From: Candidatus Dojkabacteria bacterium
GTDB lineage: Bacteria; Patescibacteriota; Dojkabacteria; SC72
Direction of reading: 5' to 3'
Assembly: GCA_016182915.1 (NCBI GenBank)
Contig: JACPFP010000002.1
Span: 155,188 to 219,187, forward strand
DNA length: 64,000 bases
The number at the start of each line of letters is the position of its first letter. The stretch's first letter is position 1. The notes under the pieces were generated by a model, which worked only from the letters and a program-made list of their open reading frames with translations, made no database searches and was not told the DNA's origin. A program made the position numbers and the translations under genes. Shown here in pieces: positions 38,069 to 53,419 of the stretch.

Positions 38069-38144
38069 TGGCGCACCCGGCCGGAATCGAACCGACAACC
38101 TGCTCGTTAGGAGTGAGCTGCTCTTCCAATTGAGCTACAGGTGC
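38069..38144 (-). tRNA. tRNA-Arg (anticodon CCT), CCA encoded
   Basis: Reverse complement gives GCACCTG...GCTCA-CTCCTAA-CGAGC...TTCGATT...CGGGTGC-G-CCA. Confidence 0.85.
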
Positions 38145-49856: not shown

Positions 49857-52463
49857 TTACATCTGCTCTACTGTATCTATCCCTAGAATATAAAGGGCTT
49901 TCTTAAGAATCTCAGTTGTAATATATACAAGCCTTAGTCTACTCTCTTTTACGTTTAAATCTCTCTCATTCTGAATATTGAATTCCCCATAGAATTTATT
50001 AAAGGATTCTGACAACTCATAGATATATCTGCAAAGAAGATGCGGAGATATATTATTTGCCGCATTCTTCACGAGTTCAGGATATTCACCTATCTTCTTT
50101 AATAGCTCTATCTCAACTTCACTATTAAGGACCTTATCCAATTCTAATTCCTTACTTCTAAATTCATACTTACAATTTCTTAGAATACTTAAACCTCTCG
50201 CATATGAATAGAGGATATATGGAGCCGCAAAGCCTGTCATACTCATAAACTTATCTATATCCCAGTTGATATCCTTATGAAGTTCATGTGAAAGTATTGC
50301 GAACTTCAGGGCCCCCATTGCAACAGTATGCGCAATTAAATCCTTCTCCTCATTACTATACCCTTTGTCTACACCTATACTCTTTCGAGCAATCTCCTCT
50401 GCCTCTGCTATAAGGTCAGTATATTTAACATTCTTTCCCGTTTTAGAACTCATCTTCTTGTTCTCGAAAAGCAACCATCCAAAACCAATATGCATATACT
50501 TTCCTTCAAGGTTAGGGAAGATAAGCTCGAGAGCTTTAATCATAGCCTTGAAGTATGCGTTCTGTTCTACTGACGTTGTTACAATGGCAAGATCTAAGGA
50601 AGGATAGTCAGTGAACTTTTTGACTGCTAAACCTAAGTCCTTACCAGAGTACGAAGGGAAACCGGCAGAGGTTAAGAACACCCATCTTTGAAGGCCATAT
50701 TTCTCGCCCTCAAAGATAACCGCTCCAGCATCCTTGGTAAAGACCTTTCCTATGTTCTCAGTTACAATCTCCTTCCCATTTTTCCATACAACAGATTCTG
50801 GATACTGTATATCATACTCAACTCCAAGCTCCTTAAATGCCTTATCCTGATGTTTGATACTAATCTCCCTTGTATATTCATAAAGCTCAATAATATTTTC
50901 ATCTGAGCGATTGTATATCTTCATATTTATATCTTTAACCTCTTCTAAAACATTCTCTTTCTCCGAAGACAGTTTTCTACCGAATACATACGATTGATCA
51001 AGATATCTAGCGGCTTCATCTATCCCCTTTTCCTTAACAATTTGGTCTAAACTCTCTTTAATTTCGGCAACATCCTCCTTTGAAAGCTTGCTATACCACG
51101 TCCCATTTCTGTTTATAACTCCCCATATACAGTTAGAGACCTGAAGACCAATATCCCCAAAGTAGTTAGCTTTGATTACATCGTATCCGAGATTGGCATA
51201 AAGTCTGGCAATTGGAAGACCTGTTACCGCACTTTTGAAGTGTCCTAGTTGTAGGGCTTTATGGGTGTTGGGCTGGCCAAACTCTACCATAACCTGTTTT
51301 CCCCTCCCGATATCTCCTTTTCCGTACTCCTCACTATAGCTATTTACAACGCTTTTAACCTCTTCACTCTTAATAAAGAAGTTTATATATCCTGGATTTA
51401 CGGTTTCAACTCTATCTATGAAATCAAGTTTCTTAATATTTCCGGCTAGTTCCTGCGCAATCTTAATTGGAGCCTTCTTAAGTTTTTCTGCAAGGTTCAT
51501 CGCTACTGTTGTAGAGTAGTCTCCAAACTTATTGTTATTATTTTTTATAATGACAACCCTATTCTTCCCTGCAAGAAGGTCTTTGGAAAGTGTAAGGACA
51601 GAGTCGTATACAATCACTTGTATCTTTTCCTCAATACTTCCTTCGTCATACTCGTAAGTCTTCTCCTCCTTCTTCTGAGCCTGTACTTTAACCTGGTCAA
51701 CTTTCTGAATTACAGGTATAGATACTCCTTCTATATCTTTAGACTTATAGTCGATTTCAACCTCGGGAGTTTCAATATCCAGGGTAATTACAAAACCTTT
51801 TCCTCCAAAGTTAGATGTTACATAATCTATAAATTCATTTGCCGCTTTCAATATATTTTTCTCGTTAATTCCTTTGAAACCATCCATAATGAAATATCCA
51901 TCTTTAGACTCCTCTGTTAGTTTTGTTCTTTCACACTGTCTCCAGTTTAACGAGAGGGTCGAAACATCATAATCATCGGCCCAGATAAGATCACCGATCT
52001 TTGGAGACTTAGCCTTTTCTTCTGAGATACCTAACCAATGTTCATCTCCTTTTGCAAACTTCATCACAAAATCACCGTAGACTTTGCTAAGATCCTCGCC
52101 ACCAAAAGGAGTAATGTACTTAATACTGAAGGAATTATATAGATCAACAATAGGATTAATTCTAGGAAGATTTCCACCCTCTACTACTCTTGATGCTAAA
52201 GCGAAATGTGTTGGTTTAGTTCTCTTAGGATTAGCCCCGAATTTCTCGAAGGCTTCAAAATACGCTTTTATGTATGGGTGGGAGACAATCTCATCACTCC
52301 CCTCTACTTCCTTTATAAGAGTCTTCTGAGCATTCTCTTTAAATTTTGTAAGGAGTTTCTCTTTATCTTCATTCCAACTATTATCAAATCCCTGAATAAT
52401 CGGGATTGCGACAAAAAGATCAGGGAATTTTTCGAATACCTCACTTTCAATTCTAAATTTCAT
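49857..52463 (-). CDS. argS: arginyl-tRNA synthetase fused to N-terminal B3/4 tRNA-binding domain
   Basis: C-terminal class I ArgRS (PNTHKALQLGH HIGH region, Arg_tRNA_synt_N-like segment, anticodon-binding tail). The N-terminal ~225 aa match the stand-alone B3/4 domain protein pattern (MKFRIESEVFEKFPDL..., LPRINPIVDLYNSFSIKYITPFGGEDL, WRQCERTKLTEESKD). 868 aa. Confidence 0.9.
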   Translation of the reverse strand: MKFRIESEVFEKFPDLFVAIPIIQGFDNSWNEDKEKLLTKFKENAQKTLIKEVEGSDEIVSHPYIKAYFEAFEKFGANPKRTKPTHFALASRVVEGGNLPRINPIVDLYNSFSIKYITPFGGEDLSKVYGDFVMKFAKGDEHWLGISEEKAKSPKIGDLIWADDYDVSTLSLNWRQCERTKLTEESKDGYFIMDGFKGINEKNILKAANEFIDYVTSNFGGKGFVITLDIETPEVEIDYKSKDIEGVSIPVIQKVDQVKVQAQKKEEKTYEYDEGSIEEKIQVIVYDSVLTLSKDLLAGKNRVVIIKNNNNKFGDYSTTVAMNLAEKLKKAPIKIAQELAGNIKKLDFIDRVETVNPGYINFFIKSEEVKSVVNSYSEEYGKGDIGRGKQVMVEFGQPNTHKALQLGHFKSAVTGLPIARLYANLGYDVIKANYFGDIGLQVSNCIWGVINRNGTWYSKLSKEDVAEIKESLDQIVKEKGIDEAARYLDQSYVFGRKLSSEKENVLEEVKDINMKIYNRSDENIIELYEYTREISIKHQDKAFKELGVEYDIQYPESVVWKNGKEIVTENIGKVFTKDAGAVIFEGEKYGLQRWVFLTSAGFPSYSGKDLGLAVKKFTDYPSLDLAIVTTSVEQNAYFKAMIKALELIFPNLEGKYMHIGFGWLLFENKKMSSKTGKNVKYTDLIAEAEEIARKSIGVDKGYSNEEKDLIAHTVAMGALKFAILSHELHKDINWDIDKFMSMTGFAAPYILYSYARGLSILRNCKYEFRSKELELDKVLNSEVEIELLKKIGEYPELVKNAANNISPHLLCRYIYELSESFNKFYGEFNIQNERDLNVKESRLRLVYITTEILKKALYILGIDTVEQM

Positions 52464-52485
52464 TTTTATACGACTTATTTATATG

Positions 52486-52559
52486 CGCGCCTGGAAGGAG
52501 TCGAACCCTCAACCCCTAGTTCCGAAGACTAGTGCTCTATCCAGTTGAGCTACAGGCGC
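52486..52559 (-). tRNA. tRNA-Arg (anticodon TCG)
   Basis: Reverse complement gives GCGCCTG...CTAGT-CTTCGGA-ACTAG...TTCGACT...CAGGCGC-G. Confidence 0.8.
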
Positions 52560-52638
52560 ATATTAAAAATACTATCTAATTTTTTAAGAACAATCTCTCT
52601 TTACTTCCATATTACACTACCGATCACATATTCATATG

Positions 52639-52712
52639 CGTACCTGAACGGAATCGAACCGTTAACCTTTGGTTCCGCAAACCAATGCTCTATCCAATTG
52701 AGCTACAGGTAC
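52639..52712 (-). tRNA. tRNA-Arg (anticodon GCG, unusual)
   Basis: Reverse complement gives GTACCTG...TTGGT-TTGCGGA-ACCAA...TTCGATT...CAGGTAC-G. Positions 34-36 read GCG. Confidence 0.7.
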
Positions 52713-52743
52713 ATGGGAAAATATAAGGATGGAAATTTTTAAA

Positions 52744-52820
52744 TGGCGTACCCGGCCGGAATCGAACCGACAACCTACTACTTAGAAGGCAGTTGCTCTA
52801 TCCAATTGAGCTACGGGTAC
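52744..52820 (-). tRNA. tRNA-Arg (anticodon TCT), CCA encoded
   Basis: Reverse complement gives GTACCCG...ACTGC-CTTCTAA-GTAGT (one G-U pair)...TTCGATT...CGGGTAC-G-CCA. Confidence 0.8.
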
Positions 52821-53419
52821 ATGCCATGGGTATTATATAACAAAAAACCCCATCCTTAAACCACATTACCTGTGATCTAGGGACGGAGTTACCGTGGTGC
52901 CACCCTACTTTACAAACTATATTATGATATAGCCTGACTTAATTACCTTCCCTACTTGCATAAATGCTTTCTTCGGGAGAAGACAAAAGCTCTTTTCTAC
53001 ATAACATACTATTAGGTTTACACTCTACCTAACTCACTATAAATATTGGTATGTATACTCTTCTTTATGTTTAGATTATATGAAAATTTTAGATCAATTA
53101 CAATATCTATTATGAATATCCCTAGATAAGGCGATGTATGTGTGAGTTCCACGGCTAATTTTAGGAAGTTTTACTTCGGATAGCGACCTTAGCTAAAGCG
53201 AAAAGTTTAACTCATCTTCCTCTATTCACGGAAGCCCTTCAAAAAAGGTAATTTCGACCTCAAGATGCGTGGAACTTAGCTCCAATTTTTATAGACTAAG
53301 GAGAAAGATACAAGACGAACCTTAGAAAGCTAGAGAGAGAGGATACCGGTATAATAAGAAAAGCCGGCGTTGAATCGTTTTGAACTTCGGCCCCTAATCA
53401 CCATGAAACATAAAGAGAA

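What the first reader, a model, noticed from the sequence alone, without database searches (positions are those of the whole stretch)
49857..52463. Arginyl-tRNA synthetase with an N-terminal B3/4 tRNA-binding domain fusion
ArgRS is normally ~550-600 aa; this ORF is 868 aa. The first ~225 aa match the stand-alone B3/4 domain protein family (MKF.I...VFE.FP.L; LP.IN..VD.YN..S.KY..P.GG.DL; W..RE..RTKLTE). A ~150-aa linker and a complete ArgRS follow. B3/4 domains occur in PheRS-beta editing modules. The fusion suggests added tRNA binding or proofreading on ArgRS, possibly linked to the unusual tRNA-Arg set.
Basis: partly seen in the sequence, partly recalled or inferred. Interest (0 to 1): 0.6.

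Follow-up and report, generated by a model that had tools for sequence, protein, structure and literature searches.

The report
Arginyl-tRNA synthetase with built-in CtdA proofreader
This candidate-phylum (Dojkabacteria) bacterium makes an arginyl-tRNA synthetase whose N-terminus carries a complete copy of CtdA, the recently discovered free-standing enzyme that strips the toxic arginine mimic canavanine off tRNA-Arg. ArgRS has until now been described as lacking any editing domain, so here it appears to have acquired a built-in proofreading module.

Summary
Window 49857-52463 (-) is one uninterrupted 868-aa ORF: a B3/4 module (aa 1-237; PF03483, 78 bits), a roughly 40-aa disordered linker (not ~150 aa), and a complete ArgRS (aa 277-868; TIGR00456, 343 bits).

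The module is not a generic PheRS-type B3/4 domain. It is a full-length homologue of CtdA, the stand-alone canavanyl-tRNA(Arg) deacylase (PDB 9f7e/9mkl; E~1e-24; TM 0.85-0.88). The mutationally essential CtdA residues Y104, N105 and E118 are invariant. Two pocket residues differ systematically (C166→Thr, E191→Asp).

The fusion is not an artefact:
- It occurs in about 70 diverged protein clusters and in 25 of 38 species-representative genomes hit, all Patescibacteria (Dojkabacteria, Microgenomates).
- Three genomes carry the same pair as adjacent genes, and one close relative has lost the module.
- The module is the most conserved part of the protein.

Sister modules fused to LysRS and TyrRS change the substrate-binding Glu, as expected for a partner-tuned editing domain.

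Best reading (confidence ~0.7): a tethered post-transfer editing domain for mischarged tRNA-Arg. I found no published description.

The suggested link to the tRNA-Arg set is not supported. However, the gene does sit behind an Arg-specific T-box leader and three tRNA-Arg genes.

The parts
49857..52463 (-). Single CDS, 868 aa plus stop: CtdA-type B3/4 module, linker, ArgRS
   Evidence: ORF list and translation. Identical to P0001, 'arginine--tRNA ligase [Candidatus Dojkabacteria bacterium]'.
51753..52463 (-). aa 1-237: CtdA-like B3/4 aminoacyl-tRNA deacylase module, including the CtdA-specific three-helix insert (helices at aa 32-52, 56-74, 85-94)
   Evidence: PF03483 at 78 bits. phmmer to 9mkl_A at 1.5e-24 and 9f7e_A at 4.1e-24. 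Foldseek TM 0.85-0.88 over 230 of 231 CtdA residues. pLDDT mostly above 90.
52095..52139 (-). Codons for Y109, N110, S113, G121, G122, E123, the equivalents of CtdA Y104, N105, S108, G116, G117, E118 (catalytic / oxyanion / substrate-carboxylate region)
   Evidence: Mapping from the alignment, with coordinates checked. Near-invariant across 73 ArgRS-fused domain instances: G116 73/73, E118 72/73, N105 71/73, Y104 70/73, S108 70/73, G117 63/73 (Ala in 9). Mutational importance from PMC12268091 and PMC12449066.
51882..51959 (-). Codons for pocket residues T169, Q176, I192, D194, the equivalents of CtdA C166, Q173, I189, E191. The 'T-Q-I-D' signature differs from characterised CtdA ('C-Q-I-E').
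51636..51752 (-). aa 238-276: flexible linker, rich in K/E/V/D/Q and poorly conserved
   Evidence: pLDDT below 50 at aa 256-264. 23% mean identity, and projected length of 17-248 aa among orthologues.
49857..51635 (-). aa 277-868 plus stop: complete ArgRS body (Add1 N-domain, Rossmann catalytic domain with Q-L-G-H and K-M-S-S-K motifs, DALR anticodon-binding domain)
   Evidence: Foldseek to ArgRS crystal structures with TM 0.78-0.88. Motifs read.
52485..52559 (-). tRNA-Arg (anticodon TCG), 21 nt upstream of the argS start codon
52638..52712 (-). tRNA-Arg (anticodon GCG)
52744..52820 (-). tRNA-Arg (anticodon TCT), with G73 and an encoded CCA. It matches the T-box specifier AGA.
52826..53074 (-). 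T-box leader (Rfam match at 52876-53074) with specifier AGA (Arg), T-box bulge UGGC, and a terminator hairpin plus U-tract (52826-52905)
   Evidence: RF00230 at 79.8 bits, full-length but below the gathering score of 93. Orthologous hits in L001, L006, L007, L032. Specifier rule from TBDB. Terminator fold of -33.6 kcal/mol, z = -4.3.
53075..53103 (-). Promoter-like site TTGTAA-17-TATAAT, immediately upstream of the T-box leader
   Evidence: Consensus scan, 10 of 12 matches. This is a consensus match only.

Best explanation
The gene encodes the cell's arginyl-tRNA synthetase with a catalytically competent CtdA-type aminoacyl-tRNA deacylase tethered to its N-terminus by a short flexible linker.

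Proposed mechanism:
1. The ArgRS body charges tRNA-Arg.
2. When it mistakenly attaches an arginine look-alike, the 3' end of that mischarged tRNA is captured by the adjacent B3/4 pocket. Canavanine is the known substrate of CtdA. Another guanidino analogue is possible, given the Thr169/Asp194 pocket.
3. Capture could happen on the enzyme or immediately after release.
4. The ester bond is then hydrolysed, using the Tyr109/Asn110/Gly121-Gly122 oxyanion and water-positioning site. The two acidic residues Glu123 and Asp194 hold the guanidinium group.

In effect, the free-standing 'third sieve' CtdA has become a built-in post-transfer editing domain.

What is shown: the architecture, the homology, conservation of the catalytic residues, recurrence of the fusion, the split-operon forms, and the partner-dependent pocket residue.

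What is inferred: the deacylase activity itself, the identity of the misacylated amino acid, and whether editing occurs in cis (3'-end shuttling) or as tethered trans-editing.
For: 1. Sequence and fold identity with CtdA over its whole length, ahead of any PheRS B3/B4 domain.
2. The residues whose mutation abolishes CtdA activity are near-invariant in 73 ArgRS-fused domains. Y104, N105 and E118 are from PMC12268091. N105, G116 and Q173 are from PMC12449066. Counts: G116 73/73, E118 72/73, N105 71/73, Y104 70/73; Q173 is less strict, Gln in 57/73 and Glu in 14.
3. The module is the most conserved region of the fused proteins: 54% mean identity, against 36% for the catalytic core and 23% for the linker.
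4. Rosetta-stone and neighbourhood evidence:
   - 42 fused proteins among the top 120 ArgRS hits.
   - 27 further fused representatives in the exhaustive 50%-identity library.
   - 25 fused loci among 38 species-representative genomes.
   - Three genomes (L016-L018) have the stand-alone module directly upstream of a separate argS, with three different junctions.
5. The same module family is fused to LysRS-I, LysRS-II and TyrRS. The substrate-binding E118 position is Glu in 72/73 ArgRS fusions but in only 1/9 Lys/TyrRS fusions (His or Tyr with TyrRS; Asp or Gln with LysRS).
6. The biochemistry fits. ArgRS is the entry point of canavanine, and CtdA acts on its product (PMC10018355, PMC12449066).
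Against: - No activity was measured.
- Cys166, described as strictly conserved in the characterised CtdA-1 clade and as a modulator of Can/Arg selectivity, is Thr here.
- The essential Glu191 is Asp here. The substrate may therefore not be canavanine.
- The S. enterica C166S variant hydrolysed Arg-tRNA(Arg) effectively. A hydroxyl residue at this position could therefore imply poorer discrimination against the cognate product.
- Canavanine is a legume product, whereas several of these MAGs carry groundwater-type names (e.g. 'NC_groundwater', the GW2011 series). The source environments were not otherwise checked. This is an inference.
- A close relative (L001/P0009, 70% identical ArgRS, same synteny) lacks the module, so it is dispensable in some lineages.
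- The relative geometry of the two active sites could not be examined, because neither PAE nor coordinates were available.
- The partner/pocket statistic is not corrected for phylogeny and rests on only 9 non-ArgRS fusions.
Confidence: 0.7

Rival explanations
1. The module is an active deacylase, but its physiological target is not canavanyl-tRNA(Arg). Candidates are another arginine analogue (homoarginine, indospicine-like or hydroxy-guanidino amino acids, or biosynthetic intermediates taken up by these auxotrophic symbionts), or a broader substrate range that includes weak turnover of Arg-tRNA(Arg). This is a variant of the best explanation that differs only in substrate.
For: - The systematic pocket changes C166→Thr (41/73 ArgRS fusions) and E191→Asp (56/73), compared with C/E in the characterised CtdAs.
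- Residue 166 tunes specificity in S. enterica CtdA.
- The authors of PMC12449066 themselves raise activity against other amino acids for CtdA homologues in organisms not exposed to canavanine.
- Several of the MAGs that carry the fusion have groundwater-type names. Their source environments were not checked further.
Against: - Both acidic pocket residues and Q173 are retained, so a guanidino-type side chain of arginine length is still the simplest fit.
- 29/73 ArgRS fusions keep Cys, and 17/73 keep Glu191.
- The C. perfringens-type pocket (Glu at position 173) is reported as functional on canavanine.
Confidence: 0.35
2. The module is a catalytically silent appendage that only adds tRNA affinity (or acts as a chaperone or scaffold), like the OB-fold, B2 or EMAPII-type domains appended to other synthetases.
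For: - CPR synthetases do acquire RNA-binding appendages. B2/OB fusions to TyrRS and LysRS are reported in PMC5370408.
- CtdA has a positively charged surface proposed to bind the CCA end.
Against: - Near-invariance of the residues needed only for hydrolysis (Y104, N105, the G116-G117-E118 loop) across about 70 diverged fusions.
- The module is more conserved than the synthetase core.
- The pocket residue E118 changes with the synthetase partner, which has no rationale for a generic tRNA-binding domain.
Confidence: 0.07
3. The long ORF is an artefact: two adjacent genes (ctdA-like and argS) joined by a sequencing or assembly frameshift or a lost stop codon.
For: Adjacent two-gene versions do exist in some Patescibacteria (L016-L018).
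Against: - The ORF is continuous, with a roughly 40-aa in-frame linker and no internal start at the ArgRS boundary.
- The identical protein appears in two assemblies.
- The 74%-identical WS6 genome L006 has an 862-aa fused ORF.
- 25 fused species representatives and about 70 protein clusters come from NCBI, JGI, ENA and Logan sources.
Confidence: 0.01
4. The fused protein is a paralogue with a non-translational role (for example an ArgRS-like enzyme in secondary metabolism or cell-wall aminoacylation), and a separate housekeeping ArgRS exists elsewhere in the genome.
For: Only 64 kb of the genome was available, so a second argS cannot be excluded.
Against: - It scores above the trusted cutoff of the argS equivalog model.
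- It occupies the same conserved locus as the unfused argS of a relative: T-box(Arg), then three tRNA-Arg genes, then argS, then tRNA-Pro.
- Patescibacteria have small genomes with few paralogues (own knowledge).
Confidence: 0.04

Closest known systems
CtdA, canavanyl-tRNA(Arg) deacylase (P. canavaninivorans PDB 9f7e; S. enterica PDB 9mkl; CtdA-1 clade)
   Same: - Same fold over the full length, including the CtdA-specific three-helix insert (TM 0.85-0.88).
- E~1e-24 sequence match.
- Same Y-N...S...G-G-E catalytic loop, plus Q173 and I189.
- Same client tRNA is implied, since it is fused to ArgRS.
   Different: - It is not a stand-alone protein but the N-terminal domain of ArgRS.
- Cys166 is Thr and Glu191 is Asp.
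- It occurs in Patescibacteria, which are not listed among the main CtdA-bearing phyla in PMC12449066.
- Its activity is untested.
PheRS beta-subunit B3/B4 editing domain
   Same: A distantly related fold used as a cis post-transfer editing site within a synthetase. The conserved Asn (N105 / E. coli N254) is shared.
   Different: - No PheRS B3/B4 chain appears among the 50 Foldseek matches listed, whereas both CtdA structures rank 21-23.
- The published CtdA-versus-PheRS B3/B4 comparisons give 14% sequence identity or 7-12% in a structure-based alignment.
- The pocket residues are CtdA-type: Gly where PheRS has His265, and Gln where PheRS has Gly318.
- It is attached by a flexible linker to a class I monomeric enzyme, rather than embedded in the class II (alpha-beta)2 PheRS.
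ThrRS N-terminal editing domain / free-standing ThrRS-ed in archaea; likewise ProRS INS / YbaK-ProXp and AlaRS / AlaX
   Same: The same evolutionary pattern: one editing module that exists fused to its synthetase in some lineages and as a separate gene in others. Here these are the fused form, the split operon (L016-L018) and the unlinked stand-alone forms.
   Different: Unrelated folds and different client amino acids. For ArgRS, no fused form had been described ('no editing domain in ArgRS', PMC10018355).
Canonical bacterial ArgRS (e.g. E. coli 4oby/5yym, T. thermophilus 1iq0)
   Same: The complete Add1, catalytic and DALR architecture, with an equivalog-level HMM score.
   Different: - It carries 276 extra N-terminal residues.
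- The first His of the HIGH motif is Gln (Q-L-G-H), as in its unfused CPR relatives.

Membership tests
Arginyl-tRNA synthetase (argS, TIGR00456) | Equivalog HMM score above the curated cutoff | tested here: met
   343.2 bits against a cutoff of 261.65, over aa 300-868.
Arginyl-tRNA synthetase (argS, TIGR00456) | Add1 N-domain plus class I catalytic domain plus DALR anticodon-binding domain, with an ArgRS fold | tested here: met
   PF03485, PF00750 and PF05746 all above their cutoffs. Foldseek TM 0.78-0.88 to ArgRS crystal structures.
Arginyl-tRNA synthetase (argS, TIGR00456) | Arginylation of tRNA-Arg; sole housekeeping copy | not testable with these tools
   Only the 64-kb window is available. 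Its position at the conserved T-box(Arg)/tRNA-Arg/argS locus supports a housekeeping role.
CtdA (canavanyl-tRNA(Arg) deacylase, CtdA-1 clade) | B3/B4 fold with the long CtdA-specific helical insert IS1 | tested here: met
   PF03483 at 78 bits. Model helices at aa 32-52, 56-74 and 85-94. TM 0.85-0.88 over 230 of 231 residues of 9f7e/9mkl. The IS1 definition is from PMC12268091.
CtdA (canavanyl-tRNA(Arg) deacylase, CtdA-1 clade) | Residues whose mutation abolishes activity: Y104, N105, E118 (also G116 and Q173) | tested here: met
   Y109, N110, E123, G121 and Q176 are present here. In 73 fused domains: G116 73/73, E118 72/73, N105 71/73, Y104 70/73, Q173 57/73 with Glu in 14.
CtdA (canavanyl-tRNA(Arg) deacylase, CtdA-1 clade) | Glu191 at the base of the pocket (E191V is inactive) | tested here: inconclusive
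   It is Asp194 here, and Asp in 56/73 ArgRS fusions. The negative charge is kept but the side chain is shorter, and the effect is unknown.
CtdA (canavanyl-tRNA(Arg) deacylase, CtdA-1 clade) | Strictly conserved Cys166 (specificity modulator) | tested here: not met
   It is Thr169 here. Among ArgRS fusions it is Thr in 41/73 and Cys in 29/73.
CtdA (canavanyl-tRNA(Arg) deacylase, CtdA-1 clade) | Stand-alone single-domain protein | tested here: not met
   Covalently fused to ArgRS.
CtdA (canavanyl-tRNA(Arg) deacylase, CtdA-1 clade) | [quoted passage not shown] | not testable with these tools
   Requires biochemistry.
CtdA-2 clade | About 20% identity to CtdA-1; C166 position missing or different; Chloroflexi, Bacillota and archaea | not tested
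   No CtdA-2 reference sequences were available. The module is closer to CtdA-1 (phmmer E~1e-24 to both solved CtdA-1 structures; adjacent in the NJ tree).
PheRS beta B3/B4 editing domain | PheRS-type pocket (His265, Gly318, Glu334 in E. coli numbering) and the bacterial IS3 insert | tested here: not met
   The positions that align with His265 and Gly318 via CtdA are Gly121 and Gln176. No PheRS structure appears among the 50 Foldseek matches listed.
T-box leader (RF00230), for the upstream element | Rfam gathering score | tested here: not met
   79.8 bits against 93. However, it is a full-length match with E 6.5e-18, and four orthologous loci score 67-80 bits.
T-box leader (RF00230), for the upstream element | Specifier codon, UGGN bulge and downstream gene all agree on one amino acid; terminator/antiterminator present | tested here: met
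   Specifier AGA by the TBDB +0 rule. UGGC pairs with G73 of the tRNA-Arg genes. argS lies downstream. The terminator folds at -33.6 kcal/mol, z = -4.3.

The most novel reading that the evidence does not exclude
The CtdA-type B3/4 fold is not a dedicated canavanine detoxifier. It is a portable post-transfer editing cassette that Patescibacteria, and some other uncultured lineages, have attached to at least four synthetases described as lacking a hydrolytic editing domain. These are ArgRS, class I LysRS, class II LysRS and TyrRS. In each case the pocket is retuned to the partner's near-cognate amino acids: Glu for Arg-like, Asp or Gln for Lys-like, His or Tyr for Tyr-like.

On this reading, the Thr/Asp-pocket ArgRS fusion in this window would be the first natural editing ArgRS. 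It would act on an arginine analogue other than, or in addition to, plant canavanine. It would reflect the exposure of amino-acid-scavenging symbionts to uncontrolled amino-acid pools.
Probability: 0.4. Interest if true: 0.8.

Novelty: new variant of a known kind. Interest (0 to 1): 0.66.

Why it matters
ArgRS is one of the synthetases described as having no editing domain (PMC10018355). Its only known proofreader, CtdA, was discovered in 2023 and has been treated as a strictly stand-alone, single-domain enzyme.

A natural, widespread and strongly conserved CtdA-ArgRS fusion would matter in several ways:
1. It gives independent genomic ('Rosetta stone') confirmation that this B3/4 family works with ArgRS.
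2. It provides a natural system for asking how CtdA recognises tRNA and how the 3' end is handed over, which the CtdA papers list as unknown.
3. It offers natural pocket variants (Thr166/Asp191) for dissecting canavanine/arginine discrimination.
4. Together with the LysRS and TyrRS fusions, it suggests that the family has several specificities, and that reduced-genome CPR bacteria invest in translational quality control.

It is also directly testable with standard aminoacylation and deacylation assays.

Tried and rejected
- Frameshift or assembly artefact: rejected (identical protein in two assemblies; dozens of fused orthologues).
- '~150-aa linker': rejected; it is about 40 aa.
- Link between the fusion and the tRNA-Arg gene set: rejected. 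The same cluster precedes the unfused argS in L001 and is absent from the Microgenomates fusions.
- A relocated PheRS editing domain: rejected on fold ranking and pocket residues.
- L002: the 661-aa ORF next to the stand-alone module is not an ArgRS and has no Pfam hit.
- A single origin of all ArgRS fusions: could not be decided. NJ trees (no bootstrap) and nearest-neighbour BLAST show two pocket types (T/C-Q-I/V-D and C-E-V/I-E) and stand-alone proteins interleaved. Fusion, fission and loss are all likely, but the number of events is unresolved.
- Literature searches for any report of a B3/4- or CtdA-ArgRS fusion found none. 'B3/B4' cannot be used as a search term, and subscription journals are not covered.
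No coordinates or PAE were available, so inter-domain geometry was not assessed.
- The literature search for T-box leaders followed by tRNA genes returned nothing relevant.
Full report
**1. Observation**

It lies on the minus strand, is 868 aa long, has an ATG start, and has no internal stop.

Pfam-A places four domains, each above its curated cutoff:
- B3_4 (PF03483) at aa 70-198: 78.0 bits against 29.3.
- Arg_tRNA_synt_N at aa 302-364.
- tRNA-synt_1d at aa 385-731.
- DALR_1 at aa 750-868.

The NCBIfam argS equivalog TIGR00456 scores 343 bits against a cutoff of 262. The quoted sequence motifs are present.

The one factual error concerns the linker.
- The unfused orthologue P0009 aligns so that its first residue corresponds to residue 277.
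- The AlphaFold2 model (110-sequence alignment, mean pLDDT 94.4, pTM 0.77) is confident everywhere except about aa 250-270. The first ArgRS helix begins at 277.
- The layout is therefore: module aa 1-237, linker aa 238-276 (about 40 aa), ArgRS aa 277-868.

**2. What the N-terminal module is**

A sequence search of aa 1-293 against all PDB chains gives only two significant hits. Both are the recently solved canavanyl-tRNA(Arg) deacylase CtdA: 9mkl_A at E 1.5e-24 and 9f7e_A at E 4.1e-24.

In a Foldseek search of the full-length model, aa 277-868 superpose on ArgRS crystal structures (TM 0.78-0.88). The N-terminal module superposes on the whole of CtdA: 230-231 aligned columns over chains of 226-231 residues, TM 0.85-0.88. 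No PheRS B3/B4 domain appears among the 50 matches listed. The model also contains the long helical insert that distinguishes CtdA from the PheRS domains.

CtdA is a free-standing enzyme, discovered in 2023. It hydrolyses canavanyl-tRNA(Arg), the product ArgRS makes when it mistakes the plant antimetabolite canavanine for arginine (PMC10018355, PMC12449066). The module fused to this ArgRS is therefore a homologue of the one known proofreader of ArgRS's own errors.

**3. Active-site audit**

Two papers define the functionally tested residues.
- Y104F, N105D, E118Q and E191V abolish activity in the P. canavaninivorans enzyme (PMC12268091).
- N105A, G116H/W and Q173G inactivate the S. enterica enzyme, and C166 tunes Can/Arg selectivity (PMC12449066).

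Mapped through the alignment, with coordinates verified, this protein has:

| CtdA residue | This protein |
|---|---|
| Y104 | Y109 |
| N105 | N110 |
| S108 | S113 |
| G116 | G121 |
| G117 | G122 |
| E118 | E123 |
| Q173 | Q176 |
| I189 | I192 |
| C166 | **T169** |
| E191 | **D194** |

Across 73 ArgRS-fused domain instances:
- The catalytic set is essentially invariant: G116 73/73, E118 72/73, N105 71/73, Y104 70/73, S108 70/73. G117 is Gly in 63/73 and Ala in 9.
- The C166 position is Thr in 41 and Cys in 29.
- The E191 position is Asp in 56 and Glu in 17.

Among 35 fused orthologues, the module is the most conserved part of the protein:
- Module: mean identity 54%.
- ArgRS catalytic domain: 36%.
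- Add1 domain: 28%.
- Linker: 23%, with projected length ranging from 17 to 248 aa (median 42).

This is the signature of a working enzyme on a flexible tether, not of a decaying or purely structural appendage.

**4. The fusion is real, recurrent and evolutionarily dynamic**

- The identical protein is annotated in an NCBI Dojkabacteria MAG and recurs in an independent Logan assembly.
- Among the 120 best ArgRS homologues, 42 carry the N-terminal module, down to 29% identity.
- An exhaustive HMMER scan of 1.84 billion 50%-identity representatives finds 2,190 homologues of the module. Among the best 150 it adds 27 further full-length ArgRS fusions.
- A scan of one genome per GTDB species returned 38 loci, of which 25 are fused. 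All 25 are Patescibacteria: WS6/Dojkabacteria, Woese-, Shapiro-, Ames- and Collierbacteria, and Microgenomates. Several TPA MAGs among them are labelled 'Gammaproteobacteria', which looks mistaken.
- Every hit from outside the CPR (Bryobacterales, Thermoleophilaceae, Clostridiales, Mobilicoccus, Chloroflexota, Collinsella, Thermoplasmatota) is a stand-alone gene.
- In three Patescibacteria (L016-L018) a 236-238-aa stand-alone module lies immediately upstream of a separate 606-675-aa argS. The three junctions differ: a 4-bp overlap in another frame, a 64-nt gap, and a 262-nt gap. These are genuine split operons.
- Locus L001 is syntenic with the window: DegT, three tRNA-Arg genes, argS, tRNA-Pro, TrmB, SDR. 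Its 592-aa ArgRS is 70% identical but has no module. It nests inside the fused Dojkabacteria clade in an NJ tree, which implies secondary loss.
- Stand-alone proteins are the nearest neighbours of 10 of 73 fused domains, and two pocket types occur among the ArgRS fusions. Fusion, fission and loss have therefore all happened, though the number of events is unresolved.

**5. Support from other synthetases**

Among the close relatives of the module are proteins in which it is fused to other synthetases. All are confirmed above curated NCBIfam cutoffs:
- Class I LysRS, at the N- or the C-terminus.
- Class II LysRS, at the N- or the C-terminus.
- TyrRS, at the N-terminus.

In all of them the N105, S108 and G116 positions are retained. 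The E118 position, which in CtdA is required at the bottom of the side-chain pocket, varies with the partner:

| Partner | Residue at the E118 position |
|---|---|
| ArgRS (73 domains) | Glu in 72 |
| TyrRS (4 domains) | His ×3, Tyr ×1 |
| LysRS (5 domains) | Asp ×3, Gln ×1, Glu ×1 |

The Fisher test gives p = 2e-9. It is not corrected for phylogeny, and there are only 9 non-ArgRS fusions. Stand-alone family members also include His-, Asp- and Tyr-types.

A pocket that varies with the partner while the catalytic residues are kept is what an editing domain should show. A generic tRNA-binding domain should not show it.

**6. Mechanism proposed**

Shown: the architecture, the homology, conservation of the catalytic machinery, the tether, and co-occurrence with ArgRS.

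Inferred:
- The module hydrolyses mis-acylated tRNA(Arg) made by the attached synthetase.
- Tyr109, Asn110 and the Gly121-Gly122 loop act at the ester.
- Glu123 and Asp194 bind the guanidinium-type group.
- The variable, disordered linker argues for tethered capture of the acceptor end, either on the enzyme or immediately after release, rather than a rigid two-site channel.

The default substrate is canavanyl-tRNA(Arg). The Thr169/Asp194 pocket leaves room for a different arginine analogue or a broader specificity, as does the occurrence of the fusion in MAGs with groundwater-type names. The S. enterica C166S variant remained active on Can-tRNA but also hydrolysed Arg-tRNA. [quoted passage not shown]

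**7. Genomic context and the tRNA-Arg idea**

Three tRNA-Arg genes lie directly upstream on the same strand: TCT at 52744-52820, GCG at 52638-52712, and TCG at 52485-52559. The last one ends 21 nt before the ATG.

A targeted Rfam search revealed a full-length T-box leader at 52876-53074 (-). It scores 79.8 bits, below the gathering score of 93, with E 6.5e-18. Several features identify it as an Arg-specific T-box:
- The hallmark AGGGUGGCACCACG sequence.
- A terminator hairpin with a U-tract (-33.6 kcal/mol, z = -4.3).
- The specifier AGA, read with the TBDB rule on the cmscan structure line.
- A UGGC bulge that pairs with the G73 discriminator of the adjacent tRNA-Arg genes.
- Orthologous leaders in L001, L006, L007 and L032 at 67-80 bits. 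AGA-G is invariant in the four close leaders, and CGC-G is found in L032.

The unit is therefore: promoter-like site, then T-box(Arg), then three tRNA-Arg genes, then argS. This arrangement is a Dojkabacteria trait. It also precedes the unfused argS of L001, and it is absent from the Microgenomates fused loci.

**8. Comparison with what is known, and novelty**

The module works like CtdA and passes most of its membership tests: fold, insert and catalytic residues. It fails two: it is not a stand-alone protein, and it lacks the strictly conserved Cys166. One further test (Glu191→Asp) is inconclusive. I therefore file it as a CtdA-type domain, not as CtdA itself.

The evolutionary pattern of fused, split and free forms mirrors ThrRS/ThrRS-ed, ProRS-INS/YbaK and AlaRS/AlaX.

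On the literature:
- Hauth et al. state that no editing domain in ArgRS had been described.
- The four CtdA-related papers contain no mention of fusions, and the 2025 NAR paper treats CtdA as a stand-alone, single-domain family.
- Broader searches found nothing.
- Mukai et al. 2017 noted only B2/OB fusions to CPR TyrRS and LysRS.

The proteins are in public databases, simply annotated as 'arginine--tRNA ligase'. Within the limits of the searchable literature, this is an undescribed variant of a known kind.

**9. Verdict**

- Observation: confirmed, with the linker corrected.
- Interpretation: partly supported. Proofreading is supported and sharpened to CtdA. The link to the tRNA-Arg set is not.
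- Best explanation: an ArgRS with a built-in CtdA-type post-transfer editing domain. Confidence is about 0.7 for editing of mischarged tRNA(Arg), and lower for canavanine specifically.
- Interest: 0.66.

Noticed in passing
window 52826-53074 (-); also L001 1470-1677, L006 2878-3113, L007 2921-3124, L032 2620-2906: An Arg-specific T-box leader (specifier AGA, UGGC bulge, strong terminator) lies upstream of three tRNA-Arg genes and argS, not directly upstream of a coding gene. It scores below Rfam's gathering score (67-80 against 93 bits) but is full-length and conserved at orthologous loci. A conserved TATAAT follows the terminator U-tract, so the tRNAs may also have their own promoter. I found no literature on tRNA genes inside a T-box-controlled unit.
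   Followed up: yes
P0261, P0309 (class I LysRS); P0278, P0279, P0344 (class II LysRS); P0296, P0350, P0372, P0381 (TyrRS): The same CtdA-type B3/4 module is fused, at the N- or the C-terminus, to LysRS of both classes and to TyrRS in other metagenomic proteins. The residue at the CtdA E118 position changes with the partner: Asp or Gln for LysRS, His or Tyr for TyrRS. Stand-alone His-, Asp- and Tyr-type family members also exist.
   Followed up: partly
P0013 (1124 aa): This ArgRS carries two tandem B3/4 modules. The second has diverged (S108→Glu; pocket V-Q-V-D).
   Followed up: no
L016 3501-6028, L017 3501-6098, L018 3501-6506; L001 2036-3814: Split-operon forms, with a stand-alone module directly upstream of a separate argS and three different junctions. 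L001 is a syntenic Dojkabacteria locus in which the module has been lost.
   Followed up: yes
window 52485-52820 (-) and 38069-38144 (-): The tRNA-Arg set seen is TCT, GCG, TCG and CCT. The CGN box is served by GCG plus TCG rather than by the usual bacterial ACG (inosine) tRNA (own knowledge). Only the TCT and CCT genes encode the 3' CCA. The same set is present in L001, L006, L007 and L027.
   Followed up: partly
window aa 396-407 of the ORF (about 51243-51278, -): The class I 'HIGH' signature reads Q-L-G-H, with the first His replaced by Gln. It is the same in the unfused relative P0009, so this is a clade trait rather than a consequence of the fusion. The KMSKS-like motif is K-M-S-S-K.
   Followed up: no
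L010, L014, L015, L017, L020, L023 (record titles): Several TPA MAGs that carry Patescibacteria-type fused argS genes are labelled 'uncultured Gammaproteobacteria', and L007 is labelled 'Saccharibacteria'. These are probably taxonomic mislabels in the records.
   Followed up: no
L002 1122-3107: A 661-aa ORF with no Pfam hit lies immediately downstream of a stand-alone T-Q-I-D-type B3/4 gene (P0121). It is not an ArgRS.
   Followed up: partly
L004 8625-12164: Near the fused argS of another CPR genome lies a 742-aa protein combining IF-2B-like and RuBisCO large-subunit domains. It is followed by a glycosyl-transferase-3 (AMP phosphorylase-like) gene. This looks like a fused version of the CPR/archaeal nucleoside-salvage RuBisCO pathway.
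   Followed up: no
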